The position numbers were made by a program, and so were the translations under genes. From a virus, in IMG/VR virus record IMGVR_UViG_3300033273_000208, positions 1 to 64,000 of that record: DNA of 64,000 bases. One strand, 5' to 3'. The stretch's first letter is position 1, and each line of letters opens with the position of its first letter. The notes below the pieces were generated by a model that searched no databases, was not told where the DNA came from, and was given only the letters and a program-made list of their open reading frames with translations. Below are positions 99-47,600 of this stretch, piece by piece.

Positions 99-1652
99 AT
101 GATTCGTAATGTTGTTATTGTAGGCGGTGGATCTGCTGGTTGGATGACCGCCGCTGCCTTTGAAAGATTACTTCCCGAATACAACGTAACCCTCGTAGAA
201 TCCCCCGATGTTCCTATTGTTGGAGTCGGGGAATCTACTTTAGGGCATATAAACATGTACCTACATCTGCTTGGTTTGGAAGACCATGAGTGGATGAAAG
301 AATGCGATGCAACATACAAAGTTGGAATCAGATTCACAGATTTCTATAAGAAAGACAATACGCACTGGGATTATCCTTTTGTGGATCCTGATCCTGATGC
401 TCTCCCTGGGGGACTTGTATCTTTCTGGGCGCTTCGCAATGCTTATCCTGAGAAATACTCACACCCTAATACATTCGCCCGAATGGTGAATGGAAACACA
501 TGGTTGATGGAAGAGAATCGTATTGACGATTCAGGTATGTGGGGTGAGATGGATAAGGACTATTCGTACCACATGGATGCGATTAAGTTCGGACAATGGT
601 TGAAGAATAATGTGTGTAAGAACGTCAAGTACGTTCAAGGGCATGTTATGGATGCGGATTATGATGAGCAAGGTAACATCACACGATTGTTCCTTGATAC
701 CAATGTATTCCTAAAAGCAGATCTATTCATTGACTGCACAGGGTTTGGATCTGTGCTGCTGGAAGGATTGATGGGTGTCAAGCACAAGTCTTTCAATCAT
801 ATCCTCCCAAATAATAAGGCAACGGTCTGTCGTGTGCCACATACAGATCCAGAAACTCAGGTGCAGAACTATACAAATGGTACAGCACTTGCTAATGGAT
901 GGGTCTGGAACATTCCACTGTGGAATAGAACTGGCACAGGATATGTGTGGTGCGATAAGTATCAGAATGAGTCGGGTGCTGAGCAGGAGTTTAGATCACA
1001 TCTTGCCAATCATTTTGATAATGTTCCTGACGACTTCCGCGTCATTGATATACGCAATGGCAAGCATGAGAAAGCATGGCATAAGAATGTTGTTGCAGTT
1101 GGACTGTCCTATGGTTTCATTGAACCATTAGAATCCACGGGATTGTTGACAGTACATGAACAGATTCGTCGTTTGATTGAGACACTGCAGACCAGAGATG
1201 GTGTAGTTAGTAGCATTGAGAAGTCAATGTTTAACTGTGCTGCTGATCGTGAGATTGATGGATTTGCCACATTTGTGTCCTGGCACTATGCCTTCTCGCT
1301 ACGTCGTGACTCTGCTTACTGGAGATATGTAACCGAGGATATTGATTACAGTATGGATCATTTCCATATGAACAGTCCTGAGGACAATACATTTAGAGAA
1401 CTTACAACATACAAGTATAGAACTCATGAGTTTCCTGCATCAATGGCAGGTACATTGTATGTACTAGCGGGGAATGATTTTGCTACACTTAGAGGACAGG
1501 GGCAAACTGTTACCTACGAAAAGTTTGGTGAACCTCCCCTAGATAGACTGTCGGGAGACGTTGACAGCAAGATGTATTGTGCATTAGAATACGTCAAGAA
1601 ACTACCTACATCCTATGAGTATTTGAGGGACACCATCTATGCTGTTTCGTAA
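99..1652 (+). CDS. Flavin-dependent tryptophan halogenase family protein (PrnA/RebH-like)
   Basis: GGGSAGW FAD motif, GVGEST, ATYKVGIRF (catalytic Lys), DCTGF, GWVWNIPL (WxWxIP), FIEPLESTG; 517 aa. Confidence 0.92.
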   Translation: MIRNVVIVGGGSAGWMTAAAFERLLPEYNVTLVESPDVPIVGVGESTLGHINMYLHLLGLEDHEWMKECDATYKVGIRFTDFYKKDNTHWDYPFVDPDPDALPGGLVSFWALRNAYPEKYSHPNTFARMVNGNTWLMEENRIDDSGMWGEMDKDYSYHMDAIKFGQWLKNNVCKNVKYVQGHVMDADYDEQGNITRLFLDTNVFLKADLFIDCTGFGSVLLEGLMGVKHKSFNHILPNNKATVCRVPHTDPETQVQNYTNGTALANGWVWNIPLWNRTGTGYVWCDKYQNESGAEQEFRSHLANHFDNVPDDFRVIDIRNGKHEKAWHKNVVAVGLSYGFIEPLESTGLLTVHEQIRRLIETLQTRDGVVSSIEKSMFNCAADREIDGFATFVSWHYAFSLRRDSAYWRYVTEDIDYSMDHFHMNSPEDNTFRELTTYKYRTHEFPASMAGTLYVLAGNDFATLRGQGQTVTYEKFGEPPLDRLSGDVDSKMYCALEYVKKLPTSYEYLRDTIYAVS

Positions 1653-2361: not shown

Positions 2362-2740
2362 AGAACTTAAAGTATCGTCAATCGATGAACTGTGGGATAA
2401 TCTTGCACTGCAACATGCAGTCAAGATGGAACAATACCTTGTAGCAAAGGGTCAACTGGATACTACTCTCGCCAACCCTGCATCTCAGGGAAGTGGTGTA
2501 ACATTTGATGTTAGAGAGATCCAAAACCTCCGCGATGAACTTGTAAAGATTGAGGGTGCACTTGATGCTCTGAATATCATCTACACTCAGATCGAGGGTA
2601 AAGAAGCACGCACATATGTTGTTGAACCTGAGCGTCCAGCACCTAAGGTAAGAGCGAAGGGTAGGGGCAAAGAGAAGTATAAAGAACTGGAAGAATGGGC
2701 ACCTGATGTTGATGCACCGAAGGTTGATACTGGTCTCTGA
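2354..2740 (+). CDS. Hypothetical coiled-coil protein
   Basis: ORF track 2342-2740; ATG at 2354 (MSEELK) preferred; coupled to both neighbours. Confidence 0.6.
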   Translation: MSEELKVSSIDELWDNLALQHAVKMEQYLVAKGQLDTTLANPASQGSGVTFDVREIQNLRDELVKIEGALDALNIIYTQIEGKEARTYVVEPERPAPKVRAKGRGKEKYKELEEWAPDVDAPKVDTGL

Positions 2741-3399
2741 TGATAAATCAAGAGTTGTTATTTCCTACACCAGTATGGTGGCAGGACTTTGATCTAGATA
2801 CTGATAAACTAACTGAAATATGCCATCAGATTCGTGATGAATATGATGGTCAAGTTAGATCTAATGTCGGTGGATATCAGTCCACCGATTTCAATGGCGA
2901 ACATCTATTGACTGTGGATGATGAGTTGGGTAAACTTGCTCATCATCTTACAGACATGGCAACACAAATCTACGCACGATTTGAACCACAAGGTACACAT
3001 GTGGAGATGGCAAATCTGTGGATCAATATCAATCATGGCAATGATTACAACGTCACTCATACACATCCTGGTTCTGTAATCTCTGGTGCATACTATGTCA
3101 CTGCACCAGAAGACGCAGGTAAGATTGTATTTGTGAAGGATCATTCCTCTGCATTTAACTTCTCATCCGTGGGAACAATGCAAGACTTTGCTGAAGGTGA
3201 AGGTGAACCATGGTTGTGGAATCAGTTTATGTACCCACCTGTCAAGAATAGGTGTATAATGTTCCCAGCATGGTTGCCACACAAAGTTGAACGAAGTGAG
3301 ACACAATCAGAACGTATCTCTATCTCATTCAACTTTGTACCTAGACAAAACCATGATAAAATAATGTATGGCATCGTGAAGAAGATCAATGAATGTTGA
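2740..3399 (+). CDS. 2OG-Fe(II) oxygenase, TIGR02466-like
   Basis: LFPTP N-terminus, HTHPG, SGAYY, FPAWLPH.V, RISISFN. Confidence 0.88.
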   Translation: MINQELLFPTPVWWQDFDLDTDKLTEICHQIRDEYDGQVRSNVGGYQSTDFNGEHLLTVDDELGKLAHHLTDMATQIYARFEPQGTHVEMANLWININHGNDYNVTHTHPGSVISGAYYVTAPEDAGKIVFVKDHSSAFNFSSVGTMQDFAEGEGEPWLWNQFMYPPVKNRCIMFPAWLPHKVERSETQSERISISFNFVPRQNHDKIMYGIVKKINEC

Positions 3400-4018
3400 G
3401 TTTCTATTTCCCACACCAGTCTGGCATGAAGATGTAAATGTCGATACTGATGCTCTGATTGCATTCAGTGTTGATTATATGCGTACTGAAAAGATGAACG
3501 GTGGTAGTTATGAATCAATGAATCTAACTGGTGCACAGTTCAGAGACAGTAAGTGTGTTGTTGGTAGTTTTGTCAGACAGGTGGAGGATAAAGCAAACGA
3601 AGCATTCCAAGACTTTGGTCCTCTGAATACATATGCTGAGATGGATCACTTCTGGTTCATTACAGTTCCACCAGGAGATCGTATGGCATTACATACACAT
3701 CCTGGTGCTGTGTTGTCTGGTGTTGTATATTTGTATGTGCCTGAAGGTGATGCTGGTTCTATCACTATTCGTAGAGATGCAACAACATCTCACCTCTATC
3801 ATTCTCTAGGTGCATACACATCATGCAATCGTGGTGACAATCAAATCACCTGGGACTCTGTAAGTTACGCTCCTGTTGTCAACAAGATGGTGCTATTTCC
3901 TGCATGGCAACCACACTCAGTATCACAGAATAATACTGACCAGGATCGCATCTCAGTGTCTTTTAACTTCCGCGTTAAGGAAGGTGTATACCCACATACG
4001 TCAAGATTATGGCAGTAG
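3389..4018 (+). CDS. 2OG-Fe(II) oxygenase, TIGR02466-like
   Basis: LFPTP, HTHPG, SGVVY, FPAWQPHSV, RISVSFN. Confidence 0.88.
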   Translation: MNVEFLFPTPVWHEDVNVDTDALIAFSVDYMRTEKMNGGSYESMNLTGAQFRDSKCVVGSFVRQVEDKANEAFQDFGPLNTYAEMDHFWFITVPPGDRMALHTHPGAVLSGVVYLYVPEGDAGSITIRRDATTSHLYHSLGAYTSCNRGDNQITWDSVSYAPVVNKMVLFPAWQPHSVSQNNTDQDRISVSFNFRVKEGVYPHTSRLWQ

Positions 4019-4698
4019 ATATTTACTATACATCTGTGATTCCCAAGAGGGACGAAGACTATCAGATCCCTACATTTGCTGAGGACTATGAAGTTCCACC
4101 TACACCAGCATACAATGATGGGATAAAGTCTCATGACCACATGTATTGTCCTGCCCACAAAGAGTGGTGTAAGAATAGATGGACATTTTACATGCCATTT
4201 GATCTACACTTCAGGTGCGACAGTGAGCATCGCATGATAGGATCAGATACACATGGAGATAAACTACAAGATCTGATTTCGATTGGTCCTAACTGGTGGG
4301 ATGATGAACTGCCAGAGATAGAAATCACATACAACACATTGTTTTGGACTAATACAAAGAATGTGTGGTTAGAGTATACTGGTCATCCCACAGTTGCACA
4401 GCATGGATTCAGTGTGGTGCCTGGCACATTTCCTATGTCATCATGGATGAGATCATTGCCTATTGGTGTCATTCCACATCGTATTGATGACGGTATCTAT
4501 ATCAAACGTGGTACACCCATCTTTCATGTTAAGTTTGTGCGAGGTAAAGATACATTCAAACTCACTAGAAAGACACCACCACCTGATAAGATAGTGCAAA
4601 TCAAACAGGATCAAGAACTCAAACACTGGGCACCATTTAAGTCCTGGGATCTAATCATGAAGAGGGAATCTAAATGTCCATTTCGTATCCGTTTCTGA
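4009..4698 (+). CDS. DUF6065-like hypothetical protein (paralog of 1639-2361)
   Basis: YCPA..W...WTFYMPFD, VVPG.FP.S.W.R, RGTPIFHV, C-terminal KCPF. Confidence 0.55.
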   Translation: MAVDIYYTSVIPKRDEDYQIPTFAEDYEVPPTPAYNDGIKSHDHMYCPAHKEWCKNRWTFYMPFDLHFRCDSEHRMIGSDTHGDKLQDLISIGPNWWDDELPEIEITYNTLFWTNTKNVWLEYTGHPTVAQHGFSVVPGTFPMSSWMRSLPIGVIPHRIDDGIYIKRGTPIFHVKFVRGKDTFKLTRKTPPPDKIVQIKQDQELKHWAPFKSWDLIMKRESKCPFRIRF

Positions 4699-5366
4699 AC
4701 CGTGAGCATTACGTCTGTGGTGACACACCGTTGTTATTCAAGGGTGTATGTGATGCACCTATACTCTATGTGGACTGGGAAGATGTTGAGCACTGCTTAA
4801 ACAATCCCTGGGAGTATAACATTGAGATTCTTGACAGCAATAACATCAAAGTTCCTATGCCCACTGTTCCTCACCCGTGGCATGGTAACTGGCATCCAGA
4901 CAAGAAAGTTATCATGGATCTTGTCAATGATAACCACACATTTGTGATTGCTAAGTATGGTCATCATAATGTTCATGTTAATGCATTGCTGCGTAGGATT
5001 GAGGATGCATTTGATGTAGCATGTGATGCACACATTTATGGTGCATTAGGTGGTGCAAGTTCATTCAAGATTCATTGGGATCAACCAGCAAACTTCATCA
5101 TGCAAATACATGGTGAGACACATTGGACAGTATATAATGAACGGTGTAGTACACTTGTCAAATATACTGGATTCCCCTATAATCCTAGTGAGGATGAAGT
5201 AACACCTGCAATCGATACGGTACTACAACCTGGAGACATGTTGTATATACCATCACGTTGTTATCATTGTGCTTGTCCTGATCAAGAACGACTGTCCCTA
5301 AGTATTCCTTGTTGGCATGATCCTGAGAACAAACCAGACAGAAATCAATACACACTTGATCTCTGA
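4674..5366 (+). CDS. JmjC/cupin-4 (ROX-like) 2OG oxygenase
   Basis: FKIHWD (HxD), FIMQIHGETHW, LQPGDMLYIPSRCYH. Confidence 0.85.
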   Translation: MSISYPFLNREHYVCGDTPLLFKGVCDAPILYVDWEDVEHCLNNPWEYNIEILDSNNIKVPMPTVPHPWHGNWHPDKKVIMDLVNDNHTFVIAKYGHHNVHVNALLRRIEDAFDVACDAHIYGALGGASSFKIHWDQPANFIMQIHGETHWTVYNERCSTLVKYTGFPYNPSEDEVTPAIDTVLQPGDMLYIPSRCYHCACPDQERLSLSIPCWHDPENKPDRNQYTLDL

Positions 5367-5853
5367 TGTAGCAACAAAAGAGATTGAACGTATAGTTACT
5401 GCTCCTGAGTTTCCCTGGTTTTATATACCTGATGCCACGGATCTTGTGCCTTCTGGTGGTGGTGCATTCATGCATCTATTGAAGATGGACTATGAGGTAC
5501 GATCACCATATTATGATCTATTTCATCTAGAGATCTGTAACTTTGCAAATCTCTATGGATATAGTCATGAGGATATATACCGTGCACGATTGGGTTTATT
5601 GTATCCCACCAAGAAGAAACATAACAAACCACATGTAGACTTCACTGATCCACATGATGTGATGTTGTGGTATATAACCAGTAACGATAAAGCACCCACA
5701 TTATTCTTCAATGACAGACTTGAAGAGATTCATCGTGTAGAATGTAGGCAGGGTCGTGTTGTGCATTTCCCTGGACATATGCTACACGCTTCAACACCAC
5801 CCAAGGATGGTATTCGTGTCGTTCTAAATGTAAATCTGAAGAGGTCAGTATGA
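5317..5853 (+). CDS. 2OG-Fe(II) oxygenase superfamily protein
   Basis: FPWFY, PHVD (HxD), GRVVHFPG..LHAS.P, RVVLNVN. Confidence 0.75.
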   Translation: MILRTNQTEINTHLISDVATKEIERIVTAPEFPWFYIPDATDLVPSGGGAFMHLLKMDYEVRSPYYDLFHLEICNFANLYGYSHEDIYRARLGLLYPTKKKHNKPHVDFTDPHDVMLWYITSNDKAPTLFFNDRLEEIHRVECRQGRVVHFPGHMLHASTPPKDGIRVVLNVNLKRSV

Positions 5854-6359
5854 TTACACAATGGTTTGATAGATCTAAGGGCGAGTGGCATTCACACCGC
5901 AGATATTTGTATGGTGAGAGTGCAGAACTCATGACCAGTGAACTACTCGTTGGTGACCTGAATGATGTTGAGAAAGCAGTCATTCCAGAAGATCTCAACA
6001 GTGACTATTATGTAAAGTTTGGATGGCAAACTGTTAAATATAGTTCAGGTGAACCTGCTTCATCTGGTGAGATGCTTGTCGGAATCAATAGTAAGGATGG
6101 GAAGATGTATCGCTCTCAAGGATACATGACCTCCAATCCCACCATGACTGATGTAACTATGATTGATGAGGATACTATCCTCTTTGATACGGAGTATGGA
6201 AAACAAAGATTTCGTGAAGAGATTCGACTCCTACACAATGACTCGGTAAGATTACGACAGACGATTGGTTTCAAGGGCAACCGTGTGACTATCGTCGGTC
6301 AATACTACGAAACTCGTAAGGAGAACGAGACCGATGTTCCTCAAGTCAGCACCACTTAG
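5850..6359 (+). CDS. Phycobiliprotein (bilin) lyase, CpcS/CpeS/CpcV family
   Basis: WF..S.GEWHSHRRY, YRSQGY....P, TEY...FREEIRL, RLRQTI match the S/U/V-type lyase beta-barrel pattern; closest by eye to the CpcV-like branch. Confidence 0.8.
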   Translation: MITQWFDRSKGEWHSHRRYLYGESAELMTSELLVGDLNDVEKAVIPEDLNSDYYVKFGWQTVKYSSGEPASSGEMLVGINSKDGKMYRSQGYMTSNPTMTDVTMIDEDTILFDTEYGKQRFREEIRLLHNDSVRLRQTIGFKGNRVTIVGQYYETRKENETDVPQVSTT

Positions 6360-6501
6360 CAAAGAGGCGAAAGGATTGCTCAAGAGAGCAATGTTATTGT
6401 TACTCTCTGACCTCTATAAGAGGCAGGGAGACATCAGTCCCAGACAACGTGATACAATACATGAGATTGTTACTACATTACATCTTGAACCCGAAGCATG
6501 A
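6334..6501 (+). CDS. Small hypothetical protein (55 aa)
   Basis: MFLKSAPLSKEAK...LEPEA*; fills the gap, ATGA-coupled to 6498. Confidence 0.55.
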   Translation: MFLKSAPLSKEAKGLLKRAMLLLLSDLYKRQGDISPRQRDTIHEIVTTLHLEPEA

Positions 6502-7106
6502 CTGTTTTCCCTATATTCTCCACACCTGTTTATGTTGACACCTATGATATTCCACAAGATGAAATAGATCTAATCAAACAGGAAGAATATAAGGATTATC
6601 CAAAGCGTGCAGATGGTATGCAGTCAGTGGATACACAACTCCTCAAGAGGTATCCGCGTCTGCATCACATCTGTCTGGGTCATATTGCCCACTATGCTCA
6701 CAATGTCCTCGCTATTGATGATCGAGTGACATGTGAGATTGTGTGTTCATGGGTCAACAAACACCGTCCTGGTGAGAGAGCAAACAGGCATGGACATACC
6801 AATAGTATGTTCACAGGTTGCCTGTATCTTGACGTGCCCGATGATAGTGGTAACATCATCTTTGAAGCATCATATAATCATGCCACATGGAACACAGGTA
6901 CACTCGAACCAGCAACATGGGAGGATAACATACTCAACTCACGCATCTGGCAGATTGTACCTGAGCGTGGCATGATTGTATGCTTCCCTGCACATGTAGA
7001 CCACTACACAGGATACAATGAGTCTACACAAGATAGATACTCATTAGGATTCAATGTAATGATGAAAGGTGACTTTAGTGCACCTACACGAGATTTGGTG
7101 TTATGA
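6498..7106 (+). CDS. 2OG-Fe(II) oxygenase, TIGR02466-like
   Basis: IFSTP, SWVN, HGHTNS, FPAHVDH, RYSLGFN. Confidence 0.88.
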   Translation: MTVFPIFSTPVYVDTYDIPQDEIDLIKQEEYKDYPKRADGMQSVDTQLLKRYPRLHHICLGHIAHYAHNVLAIDDRVTCEIVCSWVNKHRPGERANRHGHTNSMFTGCLYLDVPDDSGNIIFEASYNHATWNTGTLEPATWEDNILNSRIWQIVPERGMIVCFPAHVDHYTGYNESTQDRYSLGFNVMMKGDFSAPTRDLVL

Positions 7107-7735
7107 ACTTAGGTGAATACGATAGATCAGTCTTTCCACTGTTTAACAATCCACTCTATGTGTCTCGCAATGCTCCACTGTCTGCAGAGATAGTGGAATA
7201 TGTTGTTAATCAGGAGTATTATTCTGACCCACAAGAGAAGAATGGTGAGAATACTTCCAACCAAAGACTATTAGATGGATGCCCAGAGTTAAAGGCATTG
7301 GTTGAGAGACATCTGAATCACTATTTGTATAACATACTGTGCTTTGATAGGAAATATGTAGCACGTCATCATTGTTCGTGGGCAACTAGACACAAGACAG
7401 GTCATTCTGCTCACAAACATACACATTGCAACTCAATGTATAGTGGTGTGATATACATAAAAACGCCACCTAAATGTGGGGATATATTGTTTCACGCTGA
7501 TTGCAATCGTGACACATATACAACACCAGCAATGAGACCTGATATTGTTGAGCACAATATCTACAACTCAGCGTGTTGGTCTATACCTGCTGAAGAGGCA
7601 TTGATATTACTGTTTCCATCAACTGTGGAGCATAGTGTTGAACCCAACCGAAGTCTGTCGGATCGGTATAGTGTTGCGTTCAACTATTGGTTGCATGGAC
7701 AGTACGGCGACTGTACCAATAGGTTGACTATATGA
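7103..7735 (+). CDS. 2OG-Fe(II) oxygenase, TIGR02466-like
   Basis: LFNNP, HTHCNS, SGVIY, FPSTVEHSV, RYSVAFN. Confidence 0.88.
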   Translation: MNLGEYDRSVFPLFNNPLYVSRNAPLSAEIVEYVVNQEYYSDPQEKNGENTSNQRLLDGCPELKALVERHLNHYLYNILCFDRKYVARHHCSWATRHKTGHSAHKHTHCNSMYSGVIYIKTPPKCGDILFHADCNRDTYTTPAMRPDIVEHNIYNSACWSIPAEEALILLFPSTVEHSVEPNRSLSDRYSVAFNYWLHGQYGDCTNRLTI

Positions 7736-8067
7736 CGACACCTCTGCTAATCTCAGAGTCAGTTCCACTGGAGATCAGGAACATCATGAAGTCATTGGAG
7801 ATTGGATCACCTATCCGATATGATGGAATGGAAGGACATGTGTGCTTCGTTTGTGATTCCTACATTTCTATGTGCTTCCGTGAGTATGAACATGGTGACA
7901 AATCTGCTCGACATCCAACAACCAAGTGTTGTGTACTTATCTTTCAAGAGTTCTGGGATGAGATCGAGATTGACGACACCCACTTCTATAATAAGAAGGC
8001 ATACAATGGACTGATCCATGAACATCCTGGCAACGATATGCTACCCGAAGGAGAGCGCCCCAAATGA
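7732..8067 (+). CDS. Hypothetical Cys-rich protein
   Basis: 111-aa ORF with ATGA coupling at both ends. Confidence 0.6.
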   Translation: MTTPLLISESVPLEIRNIMKSLEIGSPIRYDGMEGHVCFVCDSYISMCFREYEHGDKSARHPTTKCCVLIFQEFWDEIEIDDTHFYNKKAYNGLIHEHPGNDMLPEGERPK

Positions 8068-38600: not shown

Positions 38601-41600
38601 TGCAGTTGATGAAGAAATCGGTTCTGGCACTATCGTTAGCGTAACCGTTACCGATCCTGGTAAGGGATATACAACTGCAAGCATCGACGTTGATGGAATC
38701 CAAGGTATTCTTGGTCCCACGCTGACTGGTTCGGGTGCTGATTTGGATGTCATCATTCCTGATGAGGGATCTGGTGCATCGGTCTTCCTGACTGGTAAGA
38801 ATATTGGTAAGATCAAGAAACTCAAGAACAATGAGTTTGGTTATGGTTACTCCCACGACTACACTCTGAAACCTGAGATCACCTTCCCGATCAACCTGCA
38901 ACTCTTCAATACCTCGATTCTGTCGCAGATCACCATCACCGATCCTGGTGCTGGATACACCTCTGCTCCTGCGGTGATCATTTCTGGTGGCGGTGGTGTT
39001 GGTGCCGAGGCAGTTGCAGTCGTTAAGAACAACCGTCTGAGTGAGATCCAGATCAAGAATCCTGGTGCTGGTTACTCTTCAGAACCCAGCGTAACTCTGA
39101 AGTCTGAGTTCAACTACGTTGTCAACCTTGACTTGAACTACCTACAGTTCAACTTCCCTCATGGCATTACTAATGGTGCTGCTATTCAGTTCCGTGCCGA
39201 TGATGTTGGTACTACTGTTGGCGAACTGCCGAAGCCCAGTTCTGCTGGTTTGACCAGTTTGGTGGTGGGTCAAACCTACTATGCGATTGCTGGAGAATCC
39301 AACTCTCTGGAAGGTGACCAACTCCGCTTTGCACTGACTCCTGCCGACGCCGAGTCTGGTAACTTTATTACATTCCTGACTCAGGGTGCTGGTCGCCAAG
39401 TCCTGCTTACCGAGGTCTTCGGTGGTAAAGCAGAGGCAGTGGTTGAAACATCCAGATTCCTGGAAGGTGAGAAAGTCTATCAAGGCGATTCTGAAGAAAC
39501 CGCAACCGTTTTTGCATATGTTTCTGAGAATAATGGTTGGCAGCTTGGTCCCAAGATTCTGAAACTTATCAATGCTACTGGCACATTTGTGGTCGGTGAG
39601 CGTGTAAATGGTTCTGTGTCTCGTGCATCTGGTGTTATCGATAACGTTTCCCTTGCTAAGGGCGTCCTGAACATCGACTCTCTGACACAAACTCCTGGTA
39701 GATTCATCGATGACGTTGGTAAACCTTCCGAAATCGTTCAGAAGATTCAAGACTCCTTCTTCTACCAGAACTTCTCTTACGTCATTAAGTCCACGATTCC
39801 CATCAACCGTTGGCGTGAGCAAATCCTGGAGAATAACCACCCGACTGGTTTCAACATGTTCGGTCAGCTTCAACTGGCTGGTGGTAAGGATATCTCTGGT
39901 CGTAAGGTTGGTACTGAGTTCATCAAGCAGGTGAACATCAATGAGTACGCCAATGTCAACCAAATCACATCCTTCGGTGCTGCTCAACCGATCTACACAG
40001 ACTTCAACAATACTGAGGTTCTGTTCCGTAAGAAGCGTTTGACCAACTCTGAGGAAATCCTCACCTCCATCGTTAAGAAACTGGACGATATTGCCGATCA
40101 GTTTGATGGCATTCAAACAGCATTCAATCTTACGGTTGAGGGTGAACAGGTCATCGTTAAGAACAACCAGTTGTTGATCACCCTGAACGGTATCATTCAG
40201 GCACCTGTCGATGCTTACGATATTGTTGGTGGTCAGATCGTCTTCAAGGAAGCACCGAAGGCACCTTCTAAGGTTGTCTATCGTGATGTGGGTCTTGAGT
40301 TCCTGACTATAACTCGTCTGAACCTGACAGATGTTTCTGGCATCTATCCCGAGATTGGATATCAGATCTCTGGTGCTTCTAGCGATGCTTACGCAACTGT
40401 AGTCGCATCTGGTACGAATACAATCGATGTGGTTGATATTACAGGTGGTCCTTTCCAGAACAACGAAAGAATCGACGTTTCTGCTCTTGGATTCAGTGCA
40501 CTGATTGGTTCACAGGAAGTCCTCACACAGTCCACACTGTATGAGTTTGATGAAACTCTGGTTTGCACCAACCGCAACCGTGGCAACCCGACTGCTCAGG
40601 TTAACGCGATCAACTTGGATGAAAACGGCGATGCCAGCAGTGCAATCGTTGTAAGCAAGACAACTGGTACTGCTAAGTATGAGACTGGCGTCTTTGACTT
40701 CCGTCTGCAGGATATCATCTACTCCACTCGCTCCAACTTGGCGGCACGTATCACATTCCTGGCACCTTACAGAGATCCCGTCACTGACGATGTTGTTGGC
40801 GAACAGATCCTGACTGCTGGTTCTTCGTTCTATGGTCTGCTGTTTGAGCGTATTGTTAGCACCAGCTATCCGAACATCCTGTTGGATGATATTTCTAAGT
40901 CCACCATCACACCTACCGAACTCTTTGACAACGAAGAGCGTATCAACTCGTTCTTCCTTGACTTTGAAGAAGTTCGTTCCACTGAGGTAACTTATACCGA
41001 TCTTAGTAGTGGAGTCTTTAGTAATGGCGATGATATCCGTAACATTAAGGTCTTCTATAACAACCCCATTTACGGTGCTGCATATGGAACTGCTGCACCA
41101 CGTTATTACGATGCTAGAAATCGCATTTCTGCATCCAAAGATGAAATCATTGACTTTGCAACTGCAGAGATTGCAGTTGAGCATGAAGACTTCTACTATC
41201 CTGGTCAACCTCAAACCGACTCCCGTTCTAGATTCCGTGACGGTTATCGTCTGATCATCAAGAACAAGGATTGGATTGTTGCCAAGACTTATGAGGATAT
41301 GATCCTCCAGTATCCTTCTCTGGTGGTTCCGAATAGTGATAAGTGTAAGCGTGACTTGGGACATTTTGTTGATGCAGTTGCATACGACACCTATGCAGGT
41401 GGTAACAAGTATGCTCGCAAGTTTATCCAGATGTACTTCACAGGTCAGGGTCTTGGTTATATCAACCAGCAACTTGCAGAAACCACTTGGGCATATGGTC
41501 GTGCAGCAACCTACATGAAGGATGCTATCACTAACCAACTGTCTGGTACTGAGACTATTGATTCTGTGTTATACACCAAGTATCAAGATCTTACAGTTAC

Positions 41601-44600
41601 CGAAGGTGGCGCTACCTATGGTGCACCTGGCACTGTCTCCAACACCGATACTGGTGCTTGTGCAGATGTTCAATCGGCAGTTGATACTTTGGCAACAGCG
41701 ATCACTGAGACGCTGCTTGGTAACCAAGACTTCGACGACATTGACGCCGAAGAACCCACATATAATACTACCGAAGAAAAATGCCGTCGTGACGTTGGTT
41801 ACTTCGTTGATGGTCTTGCGTCTGACGTTGGTCAGGGTGGCAACCTGGGTGTTGTTACCTGGGCACGTTTCTACTTCGAGAATGGAACTTTCATCAGCAA
41901 CGGTGTTGCTGGCGAAGAAGCAGAAACAATCACCGCTCTGAACAAAGCACGCGATCTTGCTAAAAGAGCAATCAACAACCTTCTGTATGAAAAGGATTTG
42001 ACAATCCTGTATGATCCTGCATCTTACGGTGGTTCTGCTCCTGGTCATGACTATGATGCAAACTACGCTTCTGGTACTAACCAAGATGCAAGCAACTGTG
42101 CGGACGTTCAGTCCACCATTGACACTCTGACTACGATTGCTACAACTGCAATCAACAACCAGACACTTGCAAATATCAACGCTCTGTCCTCCATCGATGA
42201 TGGTTCCTTCAGAGATGGTGAGACTATTCGTGTTATCAAGGTTGCATATAAGAACAAGTCCACAGGTCTGTTTAACAGATTGGATTCTGTTCGCGGTGTC
42301 ACCTCTGGTGCAACCATGACCCTGGAGGGTGTTAACTCTGGTCTTAAGTGGTTGTTTGCTTCCAGTGCAGGTGTCAATGGAACGTTCCAAGACGATGAGT
42401 ACATCACCAACTCCACCATCACCAACCCTGGTGCTGCACAAGTTACTCAGAGTGTTCTGAATGTCAAGTCCGACTTGGCAAACAGCACTAAGTCTCTGAA
42501 GTTTGTTGCAAACTCCTGGCTGAAGAAGGCAGAGTCCTACGATGTAGACTTCGGAACTGGCGATTTCACTCTGGAAGGATGGTTCTACCCCACTGGCATT
42601 GTTGGTCAGCAAACCCTCTTTGACTTCCGTCGTACAGCGACTGAGGGTCTCATGATTGAGATGAACAACGACACTCTCCGTGTTTATAGCGGTTCAGGTA
42701 CTGTCGTTATCATTTCCAATGCGGTCTTTACTGCTAACACCTGGCACCACGTTGCAGTCGTCAGAACATCTGGCGTGATGCTCGCATTCGTGGATGGTGT
42801 TCAAGCAGGTGGTAGTGCTACCAATAGCGATGACTTCGGATGGGGTCCTTGCTACATCGGTTCCGACTTGAATGGATCTAATGGTTTCATCGGTAATGCC
42901 GATCAGGTCGCAGTCTACAAGGGATATGCCAAGTTTACTTCGGCATTCACTGCACCCACTAGCAATGACTGGGATGATGAGAGAATCGTTCTTGGTCTGA
43001 ATGCTGAACAACCCTTCATCGTTTCTACTGCTGAGGTTTATGCTCAGTTCAGTGGTCAGACAGTATCGTCTGCAACTGCTAAGAGAATCGACTACGCCGA
43101 TAAGCGTGTAATCGTTGAGGACATTGATCTGGGTCGTGACTCCCATCGTGATGCGGCAGATCTTATCCTCAAGAACGATAAGTGGATCTCTGAGGTTGCT
43201 GTCGGTCGCATGAAGGCGAAGTATTCTGACTTCGTGTTGCCTGGTGATGATCCCGCAACCAACATATATCAAGGCACCTACTATTGCCTCCGCGACACCG
43301 AAGAGTACATCCTCGACGCTATCGTTAAGGATCTCAAGTATGGTGGTGATTACTATACAACCGTCGCGGCCAAGGGTTACCTGGAGAAAGATGGCAGTCT
43401 GGACTTCATCGGCAAAGAACTTCTGCAATCCCTGTACGCATGGGAGCAAGCAGGTGAACTCTGCAAGTACGTTGTTTCGACAACTGACACAGATCTGACC
43501 GATGCATACACTGAAAGACTCCGCATTCCTCTGACTGGTTCTGCTGCAACGCAGGCAGTTCTGGATAACATCGACGCTCTGACTCAGAACATTCTGAACA
43601 TCCTTGCACCTACTGGCGACCGCTTCCGCGACGCTGGCGATGCTCTGTGGTTGAACAGAACTTACATTGCTGAGGAAGTTGTTGGTTACATTGAGAACAA
43701 GTGGGAAGTTACCATCAATGGTACCTACTACGACAAACTGCAGATCCCTGGTGGTAACAACGGTCAGGTCTGCATCCGCGACATCAAGGAGTACATCATT
43801 CCTGCAATCATTGCTGACCTGCTCACAGGTGGTAATGCAGCAGTCAACGAAGTCATCGACTTCTACCTGAATGGTGAGCAAGATATCCTTCACGTCAGCG
43901 AAGAACTGCTGCCGATGCTGGATGCAATCTCCTACACCAAGTATCTGTCCACCAAGGCAATCAACCAACTGCTTGTTCAGTTCGGTCAAGCACCTGATCC
44001 TGCTCAGGGTTCTACAAACTACGACGATTACTACATCGCTCAGTACACTCAGGCAGTTCCCTACATCGATCACACGGTAACCGTGGATCCTCAGGGTTAT
44101 GACGCCAACCGCGCTGATAACAACCTGCTGATTGATGCAGCAGACATGATTGAAAGGAACAAGAAGCAGATTGCTTCTGAGGCAGTCATGAGAATGAATG
44201 ACCTCGCTAAGTTCCAAGATCTACAAATCCCTGGCGGTCAGCAGAACTGTATCGATGATGTGGTTGGTTTCATTGAGGCACTTGTCCACGACATTCGTCT
44301 GGGTGGCAACAGCAAGGTTTTTGATGCTGCTGAACTGTACATCGAACCTGAGAACAACTCCCTCCGTCACATTGAGAGTGAAGCAGAAGCATCCATCTAC
44401 GCATACAAGATGGCGAGAGACATCTGTGTTCTCGCAATGCGTAACGGATTCGGACGCGATAACATCTATGGCTATGGGTCTGGTGAGGAAAATGATCCTA
44501 GCGTTGAGTCTTACGATCAGAACCCACAATCCTCTCGCATCATTGATGCTGCAAACATCCTCGACAGAAATATCCGTTTCATTGCTGAGGAAGCAGTTTA

Positions 44601-47600
44601 TCGTACAACGATCCAGTATCCTTCCCTCACCATCCCTGGTGGCAACATCAACTGTGTCCACGACATTGCAGACACCCTGAATGCAATGGTCTTCAACATG
44701 AAGTACGGTGGCAACAACATGGTTTATGACGCTGCTGAGTTCTACGTGGGTACCTCTGGTCTCCAGCACGTTGCATCTCAGTCTGCTGAGTCTGTCTACG
44801 CATTCAACCAGGCACGCGACATTGCGATTCAGGTTATGCGTGCAGTGCCCGTTATCAACACTGGTAACGAGGTTCATGGGTTTGAGCAGAAGTATTATGA
44901 CGAGCTCGACTACGAACCCTACAAGTCCAAAACCCGCGACTATGTGACTCTGGATGAGGCTGCTCTGACTGGTGGCACTACTGCAAACCGCTCTCGTGCT
45001 GCTGACGCATACAACCTGATCTACAACAACGCTCGCTGGATTGCAGAAGGCACCGTCAATACCTTCGTGGCATCTAATAGTTGGACAATCCCTAACGGCA
45101 CCGAATCCTGTATCGATGATACTGAGCGTATCCTGAAAGGTGTTGCATATCACGTTGCTTACGGTGGTAACTCCTATGTCTGGGATTATGCAAACGAGTA
45201 TGTCCAAAATGGACACATCGGTTCTCCCCAGAACGGTTGGACGCAGGCGATCTTCAACTACATCAACAGCAATATCCTGCCCGATGTTATCCGCAACATC
45301 CAACCCACTGCAGCAAGTTCCTGGAACGCTGCAGGTCACACGGATCTTCAGCAATACAGAGATCTCACGATCACTACTGACGTGACCCAACCCGCATGTC
45401 CTACTGAGGTTGCTGCTGCTACAACGCTGCTGTCGATCGTTACCGATGCTGTGGTGAATGGCAACATGAACCACGCAGCTCGTACCGTTCCTCCTGGCGG
45501 TGGTGCATGTGCAAACGTTGAGTCTACAATCACAGATCTGTTTGCAATCGTCACCGATACAATCAACAACTACACCAGTCTGGGTGGCGTTCCTCGCACA
45601 CTGCCTAGCATCTGGCCTCTGAAGTACACCGCAGATTCTGCTGAGCGTGATCTCACCGTCACCTACGACAGTGCTGCTACTTCCTGGGGTACCACTTGCC
45701 AGAATGTTGAAACAACCATCAACGGTCTGTTTGATATCGTTCTGCAAACCATCACAGACGCAAGTGCTGCATCGCCCAGTAACTACCTGGATAGTATCTC
45801 TAGAACACTGCCCACAAACGGATTCACCAACACTCTGTATCAGCAATATACCTGCTACAACGTGATTGATGCTGCATGGACTCTGTTCGATCTGATGCTG
45901 GATAGTCTGGGTTCTGGTTCCTACTCAAACCGCCTGACTGCAGAGTTCATTCGTAAGAATGATCACGCGATTACTGCTCGTGCTGTGGCAGCAACCTTGG
46001 CACAGTATCCTTCGGGCGATATCCCCGATCAGGCATATGCACAGGATGTTCTTGAAGCATGTATCTACGATATTGCAACTAACGGCAACGCAGGTGCATT
46101 CAAACTCGCAAATGAATGGTTCGATGGTGAAGGTAACTTCATCGCTTACCCAGATATTCAGAGAATCCGCCTCCTGTACTGCATGAACAAGGTTCGTGAG
46201 TATGCGAAGGATGTGATGTTCAACTTCAATGATATTGATTGGTCTTTGTACGATGTTTGGAGTCCTGAGCAAGTTCAGGGTTATACTCCTCGCCTGGAAT
46301 GGGATCAGGAGAGCACCGAGTTCAATATGGATTCCTCGTTCAACTGCCTGGAGTTTGCTATCGAGCGTGGCACATTCCCCTCTGACAACGTGGTCACATT
46401 CGTTGCTTCCACGGACGCTCAGAACCTCACCAACTCCTATAACGAAGGACAAGACTACAACACAGACCCCGCTCTGGTTCTTCTCACTCCGACAATCGAA
46501 GTTGGTTGGGAGCGCGAAGAAAATCGCGTACGCATCAACCGTACCAACTTCTTCCGCCGTGGCGATGTTCTGAAATATGTCCTCGCTTCTGCAACTTCCC
46601 TGGACGGTGCGAACGATCAAGATTACTACTACGTTCTCAACGCAGAACCGCAGTGGTTTGAGATCTCTCGTATGTCGAAGCACGATGCTCGCTTCCGCGA
46701 CTTCACTTTCGATCTTAACAACACAGGTAACCAGCAGTTCTTCACTGCTCGTCGTGCAGGTGTTACTCGCGTTGCCAACGATTATGGAACACGCGATATC
46801 CAGACCCCCATCTCTGCTGGATTCAACATCGCAGACGTGCTCGTGGGCACGACAACTGGTGCTTCCGCCGAAGTATCGTCTACCTTTATCAATAACGCAA
46901 AGATTGTTAAGACCTTCAAATACTATGGTCTTGAAACGATGTCTGAGACTACCTTCATCGACGGCGAACAAGTTGTCGTGCAGGGTGCCGTCACAAACAA
47001 CGGTTATGTCATGCAGCACGTCATTCCTGACGAGTTTGACAACGGTTGGATCAAACTTGAAACACTCCAAGGCACAATCTCTCAGGGAGATACCATTGAG
47101 GGCATCACATCTGGTGCAACTGCGGTTGTAACTGCAGTTGAGGAAGATCGCCTGCTTCTCAATGCCAAGACTGGTATCTTTAGTCAGGGTGACTGGTTGT
47201 TCAAGAAAGATACCGCAACCGAAGCATATATTGATGTCTTCAATGACAAGCGTGGTGTTCTTACCGCAACTGACGGTGGTCGCATCACTATGGACGTTGA
47301 AACAATCAATAGTTCCTGGGAAACTGGCGATGTAATCTACGGTTCCATCACAGACAAGTATCTTGATCTGGTTGGTATTGATGACCAGGGACAAGCAATC
47401 TCCGTGAACACCTACGTGCACGGTCAGAAAATCTACAAACTGTCCCTCTCTAGCGTCTCACGCGATACGGGTTACACGGGCGACTTTGTTTCTGGTGATA
47501 CCGTATATCTGCTGCAAGGCACAACCGTTGCGGTACCTGGCATTACAGCAACTGTATCCCAGTGGGATTATCGCCCCGAGGATGGTGTAAATGATCTTTA

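What the first reader, a model, noticed from the sequence alone, without database searches (positions are those of the whole stretch)
5850..6359. Phage S-type (CpcS/CpcV-like) bilin lyase placed among modifying enzymes rather than photosynthesis genes
Seen: a lyase-like ORF coupled within the halogenase/oxygenase operon, with no photosynthesis genes nearby in this window. Established: S-type lyases attach bilins at Cys84-equivalent sites and T-type lyases at Cys155-equivalent sites; the lyase commonly reported from cyanophages is CpeT. Inference: its substrate may be the CxRD sites in the phage's own gp7 domains rather than host antenna proteins, and a cpeT elsewhere in the genome would serve the second Cys.
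Basis: partly seen in the sequence, partly recalled or inferred. Interest (0 to 1): 0.8.

Follow-up and report, generated by a model that had tools for sequence, protein, structure and literature searches.

The report
Cyanophage S-type bilin lyase gene
This uncultured marine cyanophage carries a real pigment-attaching enzyme (an S-type bilin lyase) of a kind already known from a few other cyanophages. Across genomes this enzyme does not travel with the pigment-protein-like modules in the virus's giant baseplate protein, so the idea that it colours the virus particle stays possible but unsupported.

Summary
The ORF at 5850-6359 is a real S-type (CpcS/CpeS-family) bilin lyase homologue. It scores 54 bits against Pfam CpeS (cut-off 23.3). 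Its model (pLDDT 93) is closest to the solved S-type lyases 4TQ2 and 3BDR, and the bilin-pocket residues are kept.

It nests inside the phage-only clade published as 'cpcV' (S-CBWM1, T4-like cluster C, S-CRES1-3), so phage S-type lyases are not new. What is new here:
- The backbone is a T4-like cyanophage related to S-WAM1, S-SZBM1 and P-TIM40.
- cpeT is found in close relatives of this phage (its site lies off this contig).
- The gene sits in a halogenase/2OG-oxygenase/JmjC island that follows tail-fibre genes. That position is conserved in a second lineage whose lyase is 54% identical.

The gp7-like protein does carry eight phycobiliprotein-like repeats with a Cys84-type C-x-R-D site. However, all 8 isolate phages with an S-type lyase lack such repeats, and all 19 isolates with repeats lack an S-type lyase. 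The repeats instead track cpeT (17 of 19 against 0 of 11).

The most likely acceptor is host phycobiliprotein; the phage's own baseplate repeats remain a minority possibility. This scan reached the same conclusion earlier on other DNA (e1-6032526).

The parts
5850..6359 (+). S-type (CpcS/CpeS-family, phage 'CpcV-like' clade) bilin lyase homologue, 169 aa (P0001)
   Evidence: Pfam PF09367 at 54.4 bits. AF2 model pLDDT 93.4. Foldseek top hits are 4TQ2 (TM 0.78) and 3BDR. A profile of the clade matches 4TQ2 at E 1.9e-7 and 3BDR at 2.1e-5. Nested in the phage clade on the tree.
5317..5853 (+). Upstream ORF, 2OG-oxygenase-like, whose stop overlaps the lyase start (ATGA)
   Evidence: phrog_274 at E 9.5e-30 and phrog_81 at 7.6e-7. 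Weak Pfam 2OG-FeII_Oxy_3 match. Overlap read directly.
6334..6501 (+). Small 55-aa ORF overlapping the lyase 3' end; it keeps the same position beside the lyase in a distant lineage
   Evidence: phrog_712. It follows the lyase directly in L033 too, at 51% identity.
99..1652 (+). Flavin-dependent (Trp-type) halogenase, first gene of the island in this contig
   Evidence: Pfam PF04820 at E 1.2e-100. Homologues occur at the same place, just after tail-fibre genes, in S-WAM1 and S-SZBM1.
2740..4018 (+). Two 2OG-Fe(II) oxygenase genes (2740-3399 and 3389-4018)
   Evidence: PF13759 at E 2.8e-22 and 2.1e-19.
4674..5366 (+). JmjC/cupin oxygenase
   Evidence: PF08007 at E 2.8e-21. Syntenic in L033. Annotated as a cupin in S-SZBM1.
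6498..8067 (+). Two more 2OG-Fe(II) oxygenases (6498-7106 and 7103-7735) and a conserved 111-aa ORF that closes the island
   Evidence: PF13759. phrog_81 and phrog_8681. Syntenic in L033.
41209..46242 (+).
   Evidence: Pfam Phycobilisome PF00502 at 62 bits over the C-terminal half. C-x-[R/D/H/Y]-D at aa 4894, 5040, 5541, 5703, 5862, 5997, 6149 and 6466. Repeat 1 aligns to alpha-phycocyanin 2VJR residues 41-156 with Cys on Cys84. A low-confidence model still gives only phycobiliproteins as top Foldseek hits.

Best explanation
The ORF encodes a functional S-type bilin lyase of the phage-specific 'CpcV-like' clade, acquired as an auxiliary metabolic gene.

Shown:
- It has the 10-stranded lipocalin-like barrel with an N-terminal helix that solved S-type lyases have.
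- It keeps counterparts of the GtCPES residues needed for bilin binding.
- It is translationally coupled to its neighbours in a conserved halogenase/2OG-oxygenase/JmjC island that runs on from tail-fibre genes.

Inferred:
- It binds a host-made bilin (PCB or PEB; no bilin-synthesis gene was found in the lineage's contigs) inside the barrel.
- It presents that bilin for thioether formation at a Cys82/84-type site.
- The most probable acceptor is the host's phycobiliprotein, as must be the case for its clade relatives in phages that have no phycobiliprotein-like protein of their own.
- Its place in the oxygenase island probably reflects insertion into a variable accessory island rather than a shared pathway.
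For: Identity:
- Pfam CpeS at 54 bits.
- Model pLDDT 93.4 with helix 2-9 plus ten strands.
- Best structural matches are 4TQ2 and 3BDR, and the clade profile matches the same two.
- Alignment to 4TQ2 places GtCPES R18, W69, E136, R146 and R148 opposite P0001 R17, W59, E123/E124, R134 and R136. All of these are invariant across 34 clade members. The roles of the GtCPES residues come from bioRxiv 10.1101/2020.03.31.018853.

Clade:
- P0001 pairs with P0004 (support 100/98). The pair is nested among sequences that include S-CBWM1 and cluster C phages, while a cellular CpcS sits on a very long branch.
- The only three matches in 185,579 species genomes were MAG contigs.

Acceptor:
- Eight complete phages with clade members (S-CBWM1, S-CRES1, S-CRES3, S-CREM2, S-N03, S-B68, S-H34, MA01) have no phycobiliprotein-like repeat. 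The distant positive controls Syn9 and P-HM1 scored E 1e-26 and 1e-22 in the same search.
- The literature reads these genes as host-directed auxiliary metabolic genes (PMC10665884).

Island:
- S-WAM1 and S-SZBM1 have the same island without a lyase.
- In other phages the lyase sits among unrelated small genes.
Against: - No biochemical activity has been shown for any phage S-type lyase, and none can be tested here.
- The GtCPES 'lid' Trp75, needed for transfer, aligns to Tyr64 here. It lies in a loop that most short clade members lack, so transfer competence is uncertain.
- The lyase position inside the island is conserved between two lineages that have diverged to 35-54% protein identity. 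That is more than a casual insertion would predict.
- This is the only known setting where an S-type lyase and Cys84-type acceptor-like sites are encoded by one phage.
Confidence: 0.55

Rival explanations
1. Self-directed lyase. The enzyme attaches bilin to the Cys84-type C-x-R-D sites of the phage's own gp7 phycobiliprotein-like repeats during virion assembly, with cpeT serving a second site, so that the baseplate is pigmented.
For: - The repeats are true phycobiliprotein homologues, with Cys, Arg and Asp aligned on alpha-84, 86 and 87.
- The Cys is kept in about 40 of 45 full repeats across 12 phages.
- S-type lyases serve this class of site (established knowledge).
- The lyase lies in an uninterrupted same-strand run that starts with tail-fibre genes.
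- cpeT is present in the lineage.
- Bilin genes of phages that infect hosts without phycobilisomes, and phage cpeT itself, are called unexplained in PMC3037559.
Against: - There is no co-occurrence: 0 of 8 S-type-lyase isolates have repeats, and 0 of 19 repeat-bearing isolates have an S-type lyase (Fisher p 2.8e-5 in the negative direction).
- The closest repeat-bearing relatives (S-WAM1, S-SZBM1, P-TIM40, P-RSM6) manage without it.
- Phage B3 keeps C-x-R-D in 5 repeats with no phage lyase at all.
- The enzyme is nested in a clade whose other hosts have no such acceptor.
- No bilin binding by the repeats has been shown.
Confidence: 0.25
2. Bilin carrier rather than lyase. The protein binds and holds free bilin, buffering or delivering it to host lyases or sequestering it, without catalysing transfer itself.
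For: - The binding residues are kept, but the transfer-critical Trp75 equivalent is Tyr here and is deleted in most of the clade.
- From my own memory of Gasper et al. 2017 (JBC 292:3089, not held in the library): phage CpeT of P-HM1 forms a stable PEB complex that did not transfer to host CpeB.
Against: This rests on one uncertain loop alignment and on an analogy with a different lyase type. Strong conservation of 29 positions is equally compatible with catalysis.
Confidence: 0.15
3. Non-bilin ligand-binding barrel recruited to the halogenase/oxygenase island, for example to hold a substrate or product of those enzymes.
For: The synteny with halogenase, JmjC and 2OG oxygenases is conserved. 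The fold family also binds haem and fatty acids: nitrobindins and FABP-like proteins appear among the Foldseek hits.
Against: The bilin-pocket residues are invariant. Clade members elsewhere have no such neighbours. The island exists without the lyase in S-WAM1 and S-SZBM1.
Confidence: 0.05

Closest known systems
Phage 'CpcV' / S-type phycobiliprotein lyases of S-CBWM1, T4-like cluster C cyanophages (S-CREM2, S-N03, S-B68, S-H34) and siphoviruses S-CRES1-3
   Same: Same phage-only clade, with 33-40% identity and the same invariant motifs: WFxRxxGxWxSxRRY, REEIR, RLRQT and GQYxE.
   Different: - It is a longer form (169 aa against 137-155 aa) that keeps the helix/loop segment between strands 2 and 3 found in cellular lyases.
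- Its Pfam score is higher (54 bits against 13-40 bits).
- It sits in a different phage backbone, one that also has cpeT, psbA and phycobiliprotein-like baseplate repeats.
- PMC10665884 states that cpcV is found only in cluster C and S-CBWM1.
GtCPES (PDB 4TQ2) and CpcS-III/Ycf58 of Thermosynechococcus (PDB 3BDR): characterised cellular S-type lyases
   Same: Same fold (TM 0.69-0.78) and same Pfam family. Equivalents of R18, W69, E136, R146 and R148 are kept.
   Different: - Identity is only 15-19%, and the cellular CpcS lies on a very long branch.
- The Trp75 equivalent is Tyr.
- The Met67 position, which sets specificity, is Phe57.
- H21 and N22 fall in a segment that is absent here.
Phage T-type lyase CpeT (for example P-HM1 PhiCpeT)
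   Same: It is a phage-borne bilin lyase homologue with an unresolved acceptor. In this lineage it is encoded in the same genome.
   Different: It belongs to an unrelated family (PF06206) and serves a different site class (beta-155). Unlike the S-type gene, it does co-occur with the phycobiliprotein-like virion repeats (17 of 19 against 0 of 11).

Membership tests
S-type bilin lyase (Pfam CpeS PF09367; CpcS/CpeS/CpcU/CpcV clan) | Sequence matches the family profile above the curated threshold over its full length | tested here: met
   54.4 bits against a 23.3 cut-off, covering profile positions 2-169 of 170; 51.9 bits in the six-frame search.
S-type bilin lyase (Pfam CpeS PF09367; CpcS/CpeS/CpcU/CpcV clan) | Lipocalin/FABP-like 10-stranded antiparallel beta-barrel with an N-terminal helix | tested here: met
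   AF2 model pLDDT 93.4 with helix 2-9 and ten strands. Foldseek ranks 1 and 2 are 4TQ2 and 3BDR, with TM 0.78 and 0.69-0.74.
S-type bilin lyase (Pfam CpeS PF09367; CpcS/CpeS/CpcU/CpcV clan) | Conserved pocket residues equivalent to GtCPES E136, R146 and R148 (plus R18 and W69) | tested here: met
   HMMER alignments to 4TQ2 pair them with E123/E124, R134, R136, R17 and W59, all invariant in 34 clade members. An E168 equivalent (probably E154) is inferred from spacing only.
S-type bilin lyase (Pfam CpeS PF09367; CpcS/CpeS/CpcU/CpcV clan) | Lid tryptophan (GtCPES W75) required for transfer to the apoprotein | tested here: inconclusive
   It aligns to Tyr64 in a variable loop. The segment is gapped in most short clade members. 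The alignment is uncertain in this region.
S-type bilin lyase (Pfam CpeS PF09367; CpcS/CpeS/CpcU/CpcV clan) | Binds PCB or PEB and catalyses thioether formation at Cys82/84 of a phycobiliprotein | not testable with these tools
   Needs recombinant protein, a bilin and apoprotein assays.
Phage 'CpcV-like' clade | Groups with the phage sequences to the exclusion of cellular S-type lyases | tested here: met
   On the IQ-TREE tree, P0001+P0004 (100/98) lie inside a 96/97-supported group with S-CBWM1 and cluster C, and the cellular CpcS branch length is about 10. The second cellular paralogue was dropped for poor overlap, so the root rests on one outgroup.
Cellular CpcV (orthology with the cyanobacterial gene of that name) | Orthology to host cpcV | not tested
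   No labelled CpcV reference was available. [quoted passage not shown]
   For the S-type lyase: both present in 0 genomes, lyase only in 8, repeats only in 19, neither in 3, among 30 complete genomes. The two coexist only in the window's own uncultured lineage (G000, G001, G002).

The most novel reading that the evidence does not exclude
Phage bilin lyases may work on the virion, not on the host antenna. The Cys84-type C-x-R-D sites of the cyanophage-specific phycobiliprotein-like repeats in baseplate and tail-fibre proteins would be chromophorylated. Phage CpeT is the usual partner, and in this lineage a dedicated S-type lyase, co-transcribed after the tail-fibre genes, would be added. The pigmented baseplate could be the long-sought light sensor behind light-dependent adsorption of cyanomyoviruses.

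Consistent with this:
- Repeats track cpeT at 17 of 19 against 0 of 11.
- P-HM1, P-HM2 and S-PM2, which have repeats and cpeT, need light to adsorb, whereas P-SSM2, which has neither, adsorbs in the dark (PMC6628666).

Caveats: the genomes are related and were not sampled at random, the phenotype count is four phages, and no bilin binding has been shown.
Probability: 0.2. Interest if true: 0.9.

Novelty: new member of a known kind. Interest (0 to 1): 0.45.

Why it matters
By itself the gene adds a divergent, fuller-length member to a small published group of phage S-type lyases. It also shows that this auxiliary gene has moved into a mainstream T4-like cyanophage backbone that already has cpeT, which contradicts the published statement that cpcV is confined to cluster C and S-CBWM1.

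Its wider value is as a natural test case. This is the one lineage in which an S-type lyase, a T-type lyase and eight Cys84-type phycobiliprotein-like modules of a virion protein are found together. Simple co-expression assays with these three parts could settle two questions: whether cyanophage particles carry bilins, and what the unexplained phage lyase genes are for.

Tried and rejected
- Megablast of 4000-8000 against the phage records gave no match.
- NCBIfam and PHROGs gave nothing for the lyase.
The 69-kb contig that holds the P0004-like protein P0038 therefore could not be examined, and G003 ends before its gp7 region, so the second long-form lineage could not be tested for repeats.
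- The Pseudomonas, Ralstonia and Variovorax phage hits to the broad gp7 query were rejected as evidence that the repeats occur outside cyanophages. They vanish when the LamG-containing part is left out: 364 records, all cyanophages (LamG).
- The AF2 model of gp7 repeat 1, from an 8-row alignment, was poor (pLDDT 56.5). Its Foldseek hits are all phycobiliproteins, but only at E of about 1e-2, so I use it only as weak support. The second-Cys (beta-155-like) claim could not be placed structurally.
- Scans for sigma-70 promoters, terminators and the late-promoter word TATAAATA were at chance level, so the expression class is unknown.
- No RNA holder was listed for the stretch, and read laying was not run.
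- Gasper et al. 2017 is not held in the library; what I say of it is from memory.
- I had misremembered which phage needs light to adsorb. Reading PMC6628666 corrected this.

Full report
**Observation**

The window is the first 64 kb of a 73.9-kb IMG/VR viral contig that CheckV rates at about 41% complete. ORF 5850-6359 (+) encodes 169 aa (P0001). Its ATG overlaps the stop of ORF 5317-5853 as ATGA, with AGAGG 7 nt upstream. A conserved 55-aa ORF (6334-6501) overlaps its 3' end.

Pfam gives CpeS PF09367 at E 1.8e-14 and 54.4 bits, against a cut-off of 23.3, over nearly the whole profile. The same strand carries these genes with no real gaps:
- a Trp-type halogenase (99-1652);
- four PF13759 2OG-Fe(II) oxygenases (2740, 3389, 6498, 7103);
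- a JmjC protein (4674);
- several conserved unknowns.

The contig has no match to Photo_RC, CpeT, Fe_bilin_red or haem oxygenase.

**What the protein is**

An AlphaFold2 model built on 34 homologues has mean pLDDT 93.4 and shows an N-terminal helix followed by ten strands. Foldseek against the PDB ranks the S-type lyase GtCPES (4TQ2, TM 0.78) first and CpcS-III/Ycf58 (3BDR, TM 0.69-0.74) second. Nitrobindins and other lipocalin-like barrels come next. A profile of the homologues matches the same two chains at E 1.9e-7 and 2.1e-5.

In the HMMER alignments to 4TQ2 (chain numbering is paper numbering plus 15), GtCPES residues pair with P0001 residues as follows:

| GtCPES | P0001 |
|---|---|
| R18 | R17 |
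| W69 | W59 |
| E136 | E123/E124 |
| R146 | R134 |
| R148 | R136 |

All of these P0001 positions are invariant in the 34-sequence alignment. According to bioRxiv 10.1101/2020.03.31.018853:
- E136 and E168 hold the bilin.
- W75 is needed for transfer.
- Position 67 sets PEB or PCB specificity.

E154 of the invariant GQYxE motif is probably the E168 equivalent, judged by spacing only. The W75 equivalent is Tyr64, in a loop that most short clade members lack. Position 67 is Phe57. Bilin binding is therefore well supported by sequence, while transfer competence and bilin preference remain open.

**Where it belongs**

A tblastn search finds homologues in 15 phage records at no more than 40% identity. 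They are S-CBWM1 ('putative phycocyanobilin lyase CpcV'), S-CRES1/2/3 and S-CREM2 ('S-type phycobiliprotein lyase'), S-N03, S-B68, S-H34, and MA01, MA10, ME01 and MC09. The S-CREM2 paper (PMC10665884) describes this gene as cpcV. It says cpcV occurs only in T4-like cluster C phages and S-CBWM1, that clusters A and B carry only T-type lyases, and that the phage clade does not group with host cpcV.

The 5.8-billion-protein search returns 35 relatives. One is near-identical (P0003) and one is a 54%-identical 172-aa form (P0004). The rest are 137-152 aa at 32-46% identity. Only three MAG contigs in 185,579 species genomes match. One of them lies in a cyanobacterial bin that also has two ordinary cellular CpeS-family genes.

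On a maximum-likelihood tree, P0001 and P0004 pair (support 100/98) and are sister to P0005, P0006 and the MAG copy (98/93). This group lies inside a 96/97-supported group with S-CBWM1 and the cluster C phages. The cellular CpcS sits on a branch of length about 10. One cellular paralogue was dropped by the tool for poor overlap.

The window's enzyme is therefore a nested member of a known phage clade. It is a longer form that keeps the helix/loop segment between strands 2 and 3 seen in cellular lyases, and it gives the highest Pfam score among the phage copies.

**Genomic setting**

Two IMG/VR contigs carry a 96%-identical lyase with the same gene order (L006/G001 of 90 kb and L007/G002 of 112 kb). 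In L006 the halogenase is preceded, without gaps, by four same-strand ORFs. One of them has a glycine-rich domain.

The isolates S-WAM1 and S-SZBM1 have tail-fibre and structural genes directly followed by halogenase, 2OG oxygenases and a cupin, then small genes and a helicase. Neither has a lyase there.

A third contig (L033/G003, lyase 54% identical, halogenase 39%) keeps this order: halogenase, ORF1639 homologue, 2OG oxygenase, JmjC, lyase, small ORF, 2OG oxygenase, ORF7732 homologue. The position of the lyase inside this island is therefore old. In contrast, in S-CBWM1, S-CRES1/3, S-CREM2, S-N03, S-B68 and S-H34 the lyase sits among unrelated small genes.

The lineage has cpeT, in G002 about 22 kb beyond the point where the window's contig starts and also in G003. 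It also has psbA at the end of G002. Neither bilin reductase nor haem oxygenase was found in the 63% and 50% of the genome available.

**The proposed acceptor**

The 7523-aa gp7-like ORF (26665-49236) scores 62 bits against Pfam Phycobilisome over its C-terminal half (individual hits). It holds eight repeats with C-x-[R/D/H/Y]-D.

Repeat 1 aligns to Gloeobacter alpha-phycocyanin (2VJR) over residues 41-156. NSDKCKRDLGHF lies on NQAKCARDISHY, which puts the Cys on Cys84, the Arg on Arg86 and the Asp on Asp87.

A model from only eight rows was poor (pLDDT 56.5). Even so, every top Foldseek hit was a phycobiliprotein (E about 1e-2, TM 0.5-0.6).

With the LamG-containing part left out of the query, tblastn finds the repeats in 364 phage records, all of them cyanophages. 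The few Pseudomonas and Ralstonia hits of the broader query therefore most likely came from the LamG part.

Across 12 phages the Cys column is occupied by Cys in about 40 of 45 full repeats. This includes phage B3, which has no lyase gene. The acceptor-like sites are real and conserved.

**Co-occurrence test**

Profile searches of 30 complete phage genomes gave the counts below. The distant positive controls Syn9 and P-HM1 scored E 1e-26 and 1e-22.

| Gene compared with the repeats | Both | Gene only | Repeats only | Neither |
|---|---|---|---|---|
| S-type lyase | 0 | 8 | 19 | 3 |
| CpeT | 17 | 0 | 2 (B3, S-B43) | 11 |

- The eight 'S-type lyase only' phages are S-CBWM1, S-CRES1, S-CRES3, S-CREM2, S-N03, S-B68, S-H34 and MA01.
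- The three phages with neither the S-type lyase nor the repeats are P-SSM2, S-SSM7 and S-SRM01.
- For CpeT, all four phages picked on cpeT alone had the repeats.
- Fisher tests give p 2.8e-5 (negative association) for the S-type lyase and p 1.4e-6 (positive) for CpeT.
- These p-values ignore shared ancestry and my non-random choice of genomes, so they are descriptive only.

The S-type lyase and the repeats meet only in the window's own lineage (G000, G001 and G002). At the level of the lyase family, that result is what I find.

**Reading**

The most economical account is a horizontally mobile, host-directed bilin lyase gene that entered the accessory island of this T4-like lineage. I put this at about 0.55.

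The self-directed model keeps about 0.25, for four reasons:
- The island position is anciently conserved and follows the tail-fibre genes.
- The site class fits an S-type enzyme.
- This lineage alone unites all the parts.
- The role of phage cpeT and phage bilin genes is openly unresolved (PMC3037559).

A carrier-only role (0.15) and a non-bilin role (0.05) are the remaining rivals.

**A lead beyond the finding**

PMC6628666 reports that P-HM1 and P-HM2 do not adsorb in the dark and that P-SSM2 does. It also notes that the light-dependent adsorption of S-PM2 is independent of host photosynthesis, and that light-sensitive tail fibres have been suggested. In my matrix the first three phages have the repeats and cpeT, and P-SSM2 has neither. 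That is four data points, but it makes a pigmented, light-sensing baseplate a testable idea.

**Earlier notes of this scan**

Earlier notes on other genomes reached the same two conclusions: e1-6032526 for the S-type lyase, and e1-5997719 and e1-6026830 for the CpeT link. I reached them here through my own searches before reading those notes.

Noticed in passing
window 41209-46242, and 30 complete phage genomes: The phycobiliprotein-like virion repeats track the T-type lyase gene cpeT: both in 17 genomes, repeats only in 2 (B3, S-B43), cpeT only in 0, neither in 11. All four phages chosen on cpeT alone had the repeats. There is no phylogenetic correction.
   Followed up: partly
Literature (PMC6628666) set against the matrix: Phages reported to need light for adsorption (P-HM1, P-HM2, S-PM2) have the repeats and cpeT. 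P-SSM2, which adsorbs in the dark, has neither. There are only four data points.
   Followed up: partly
L008 1444-2488 (G002); S-SZBM1, S-WAM1 and P-RSM6: In this group of phages cpeT lies directly beside, and overlaps, a 2OG-Fe(II) oxygenase gene. Both lyase genes of the lineage therefore have 2OG oxygenase neighbours.
   Followed up: no
L042 (phage B3) and L043 (S-B43): These two large cyanomyoviruses have the repeats with C-x-R-D intact (5 in B3) but no phage lyase of either type. If the repeats bind bilin, host lyases or autocatalysis must suffice there.
   Followed up: partly
S-B43 MN018232.1 169606-169767: A weak CpeS-like frame (14.7 bits, below the cut-off) with an in-frame TAG. It may be a decayed S-type lyase remnant or chance.
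   Followed up: no
L016 (G004 contig C37, 14.5 kb): A 2.4-Mb cyanobacterial MAG, which has two strong CpeT genes and two cellular CpeS-family genes, also carries a phage-clade cpcV-like gene on a short contig. This could be a prophage or a binning artefact.
   Followed up: no
window 26665-49236: Besides the repeats, the gp7-like giant protein holds a YHYH domain (PF14240, aa 1400-1544, E 1e-30) and a LamG domain (PF13385, about aa 5293-5419).
   Followed up: no
L038 (S-PM2 AJ630128.1 166605-172765): The record lists 15 tRNA features inside CDS S-PM2p218, the ORF that holds phycobiliprotein-like repeats. It looks like an annotation or coordinate oddity.
   Followed up: no
window 4700-7200: Parts of this stretch (0.30-0.46 of the sampled words) are held by marine or seawater metagenome runs from 8 studies dated 2017-2025.
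   Followed up: no
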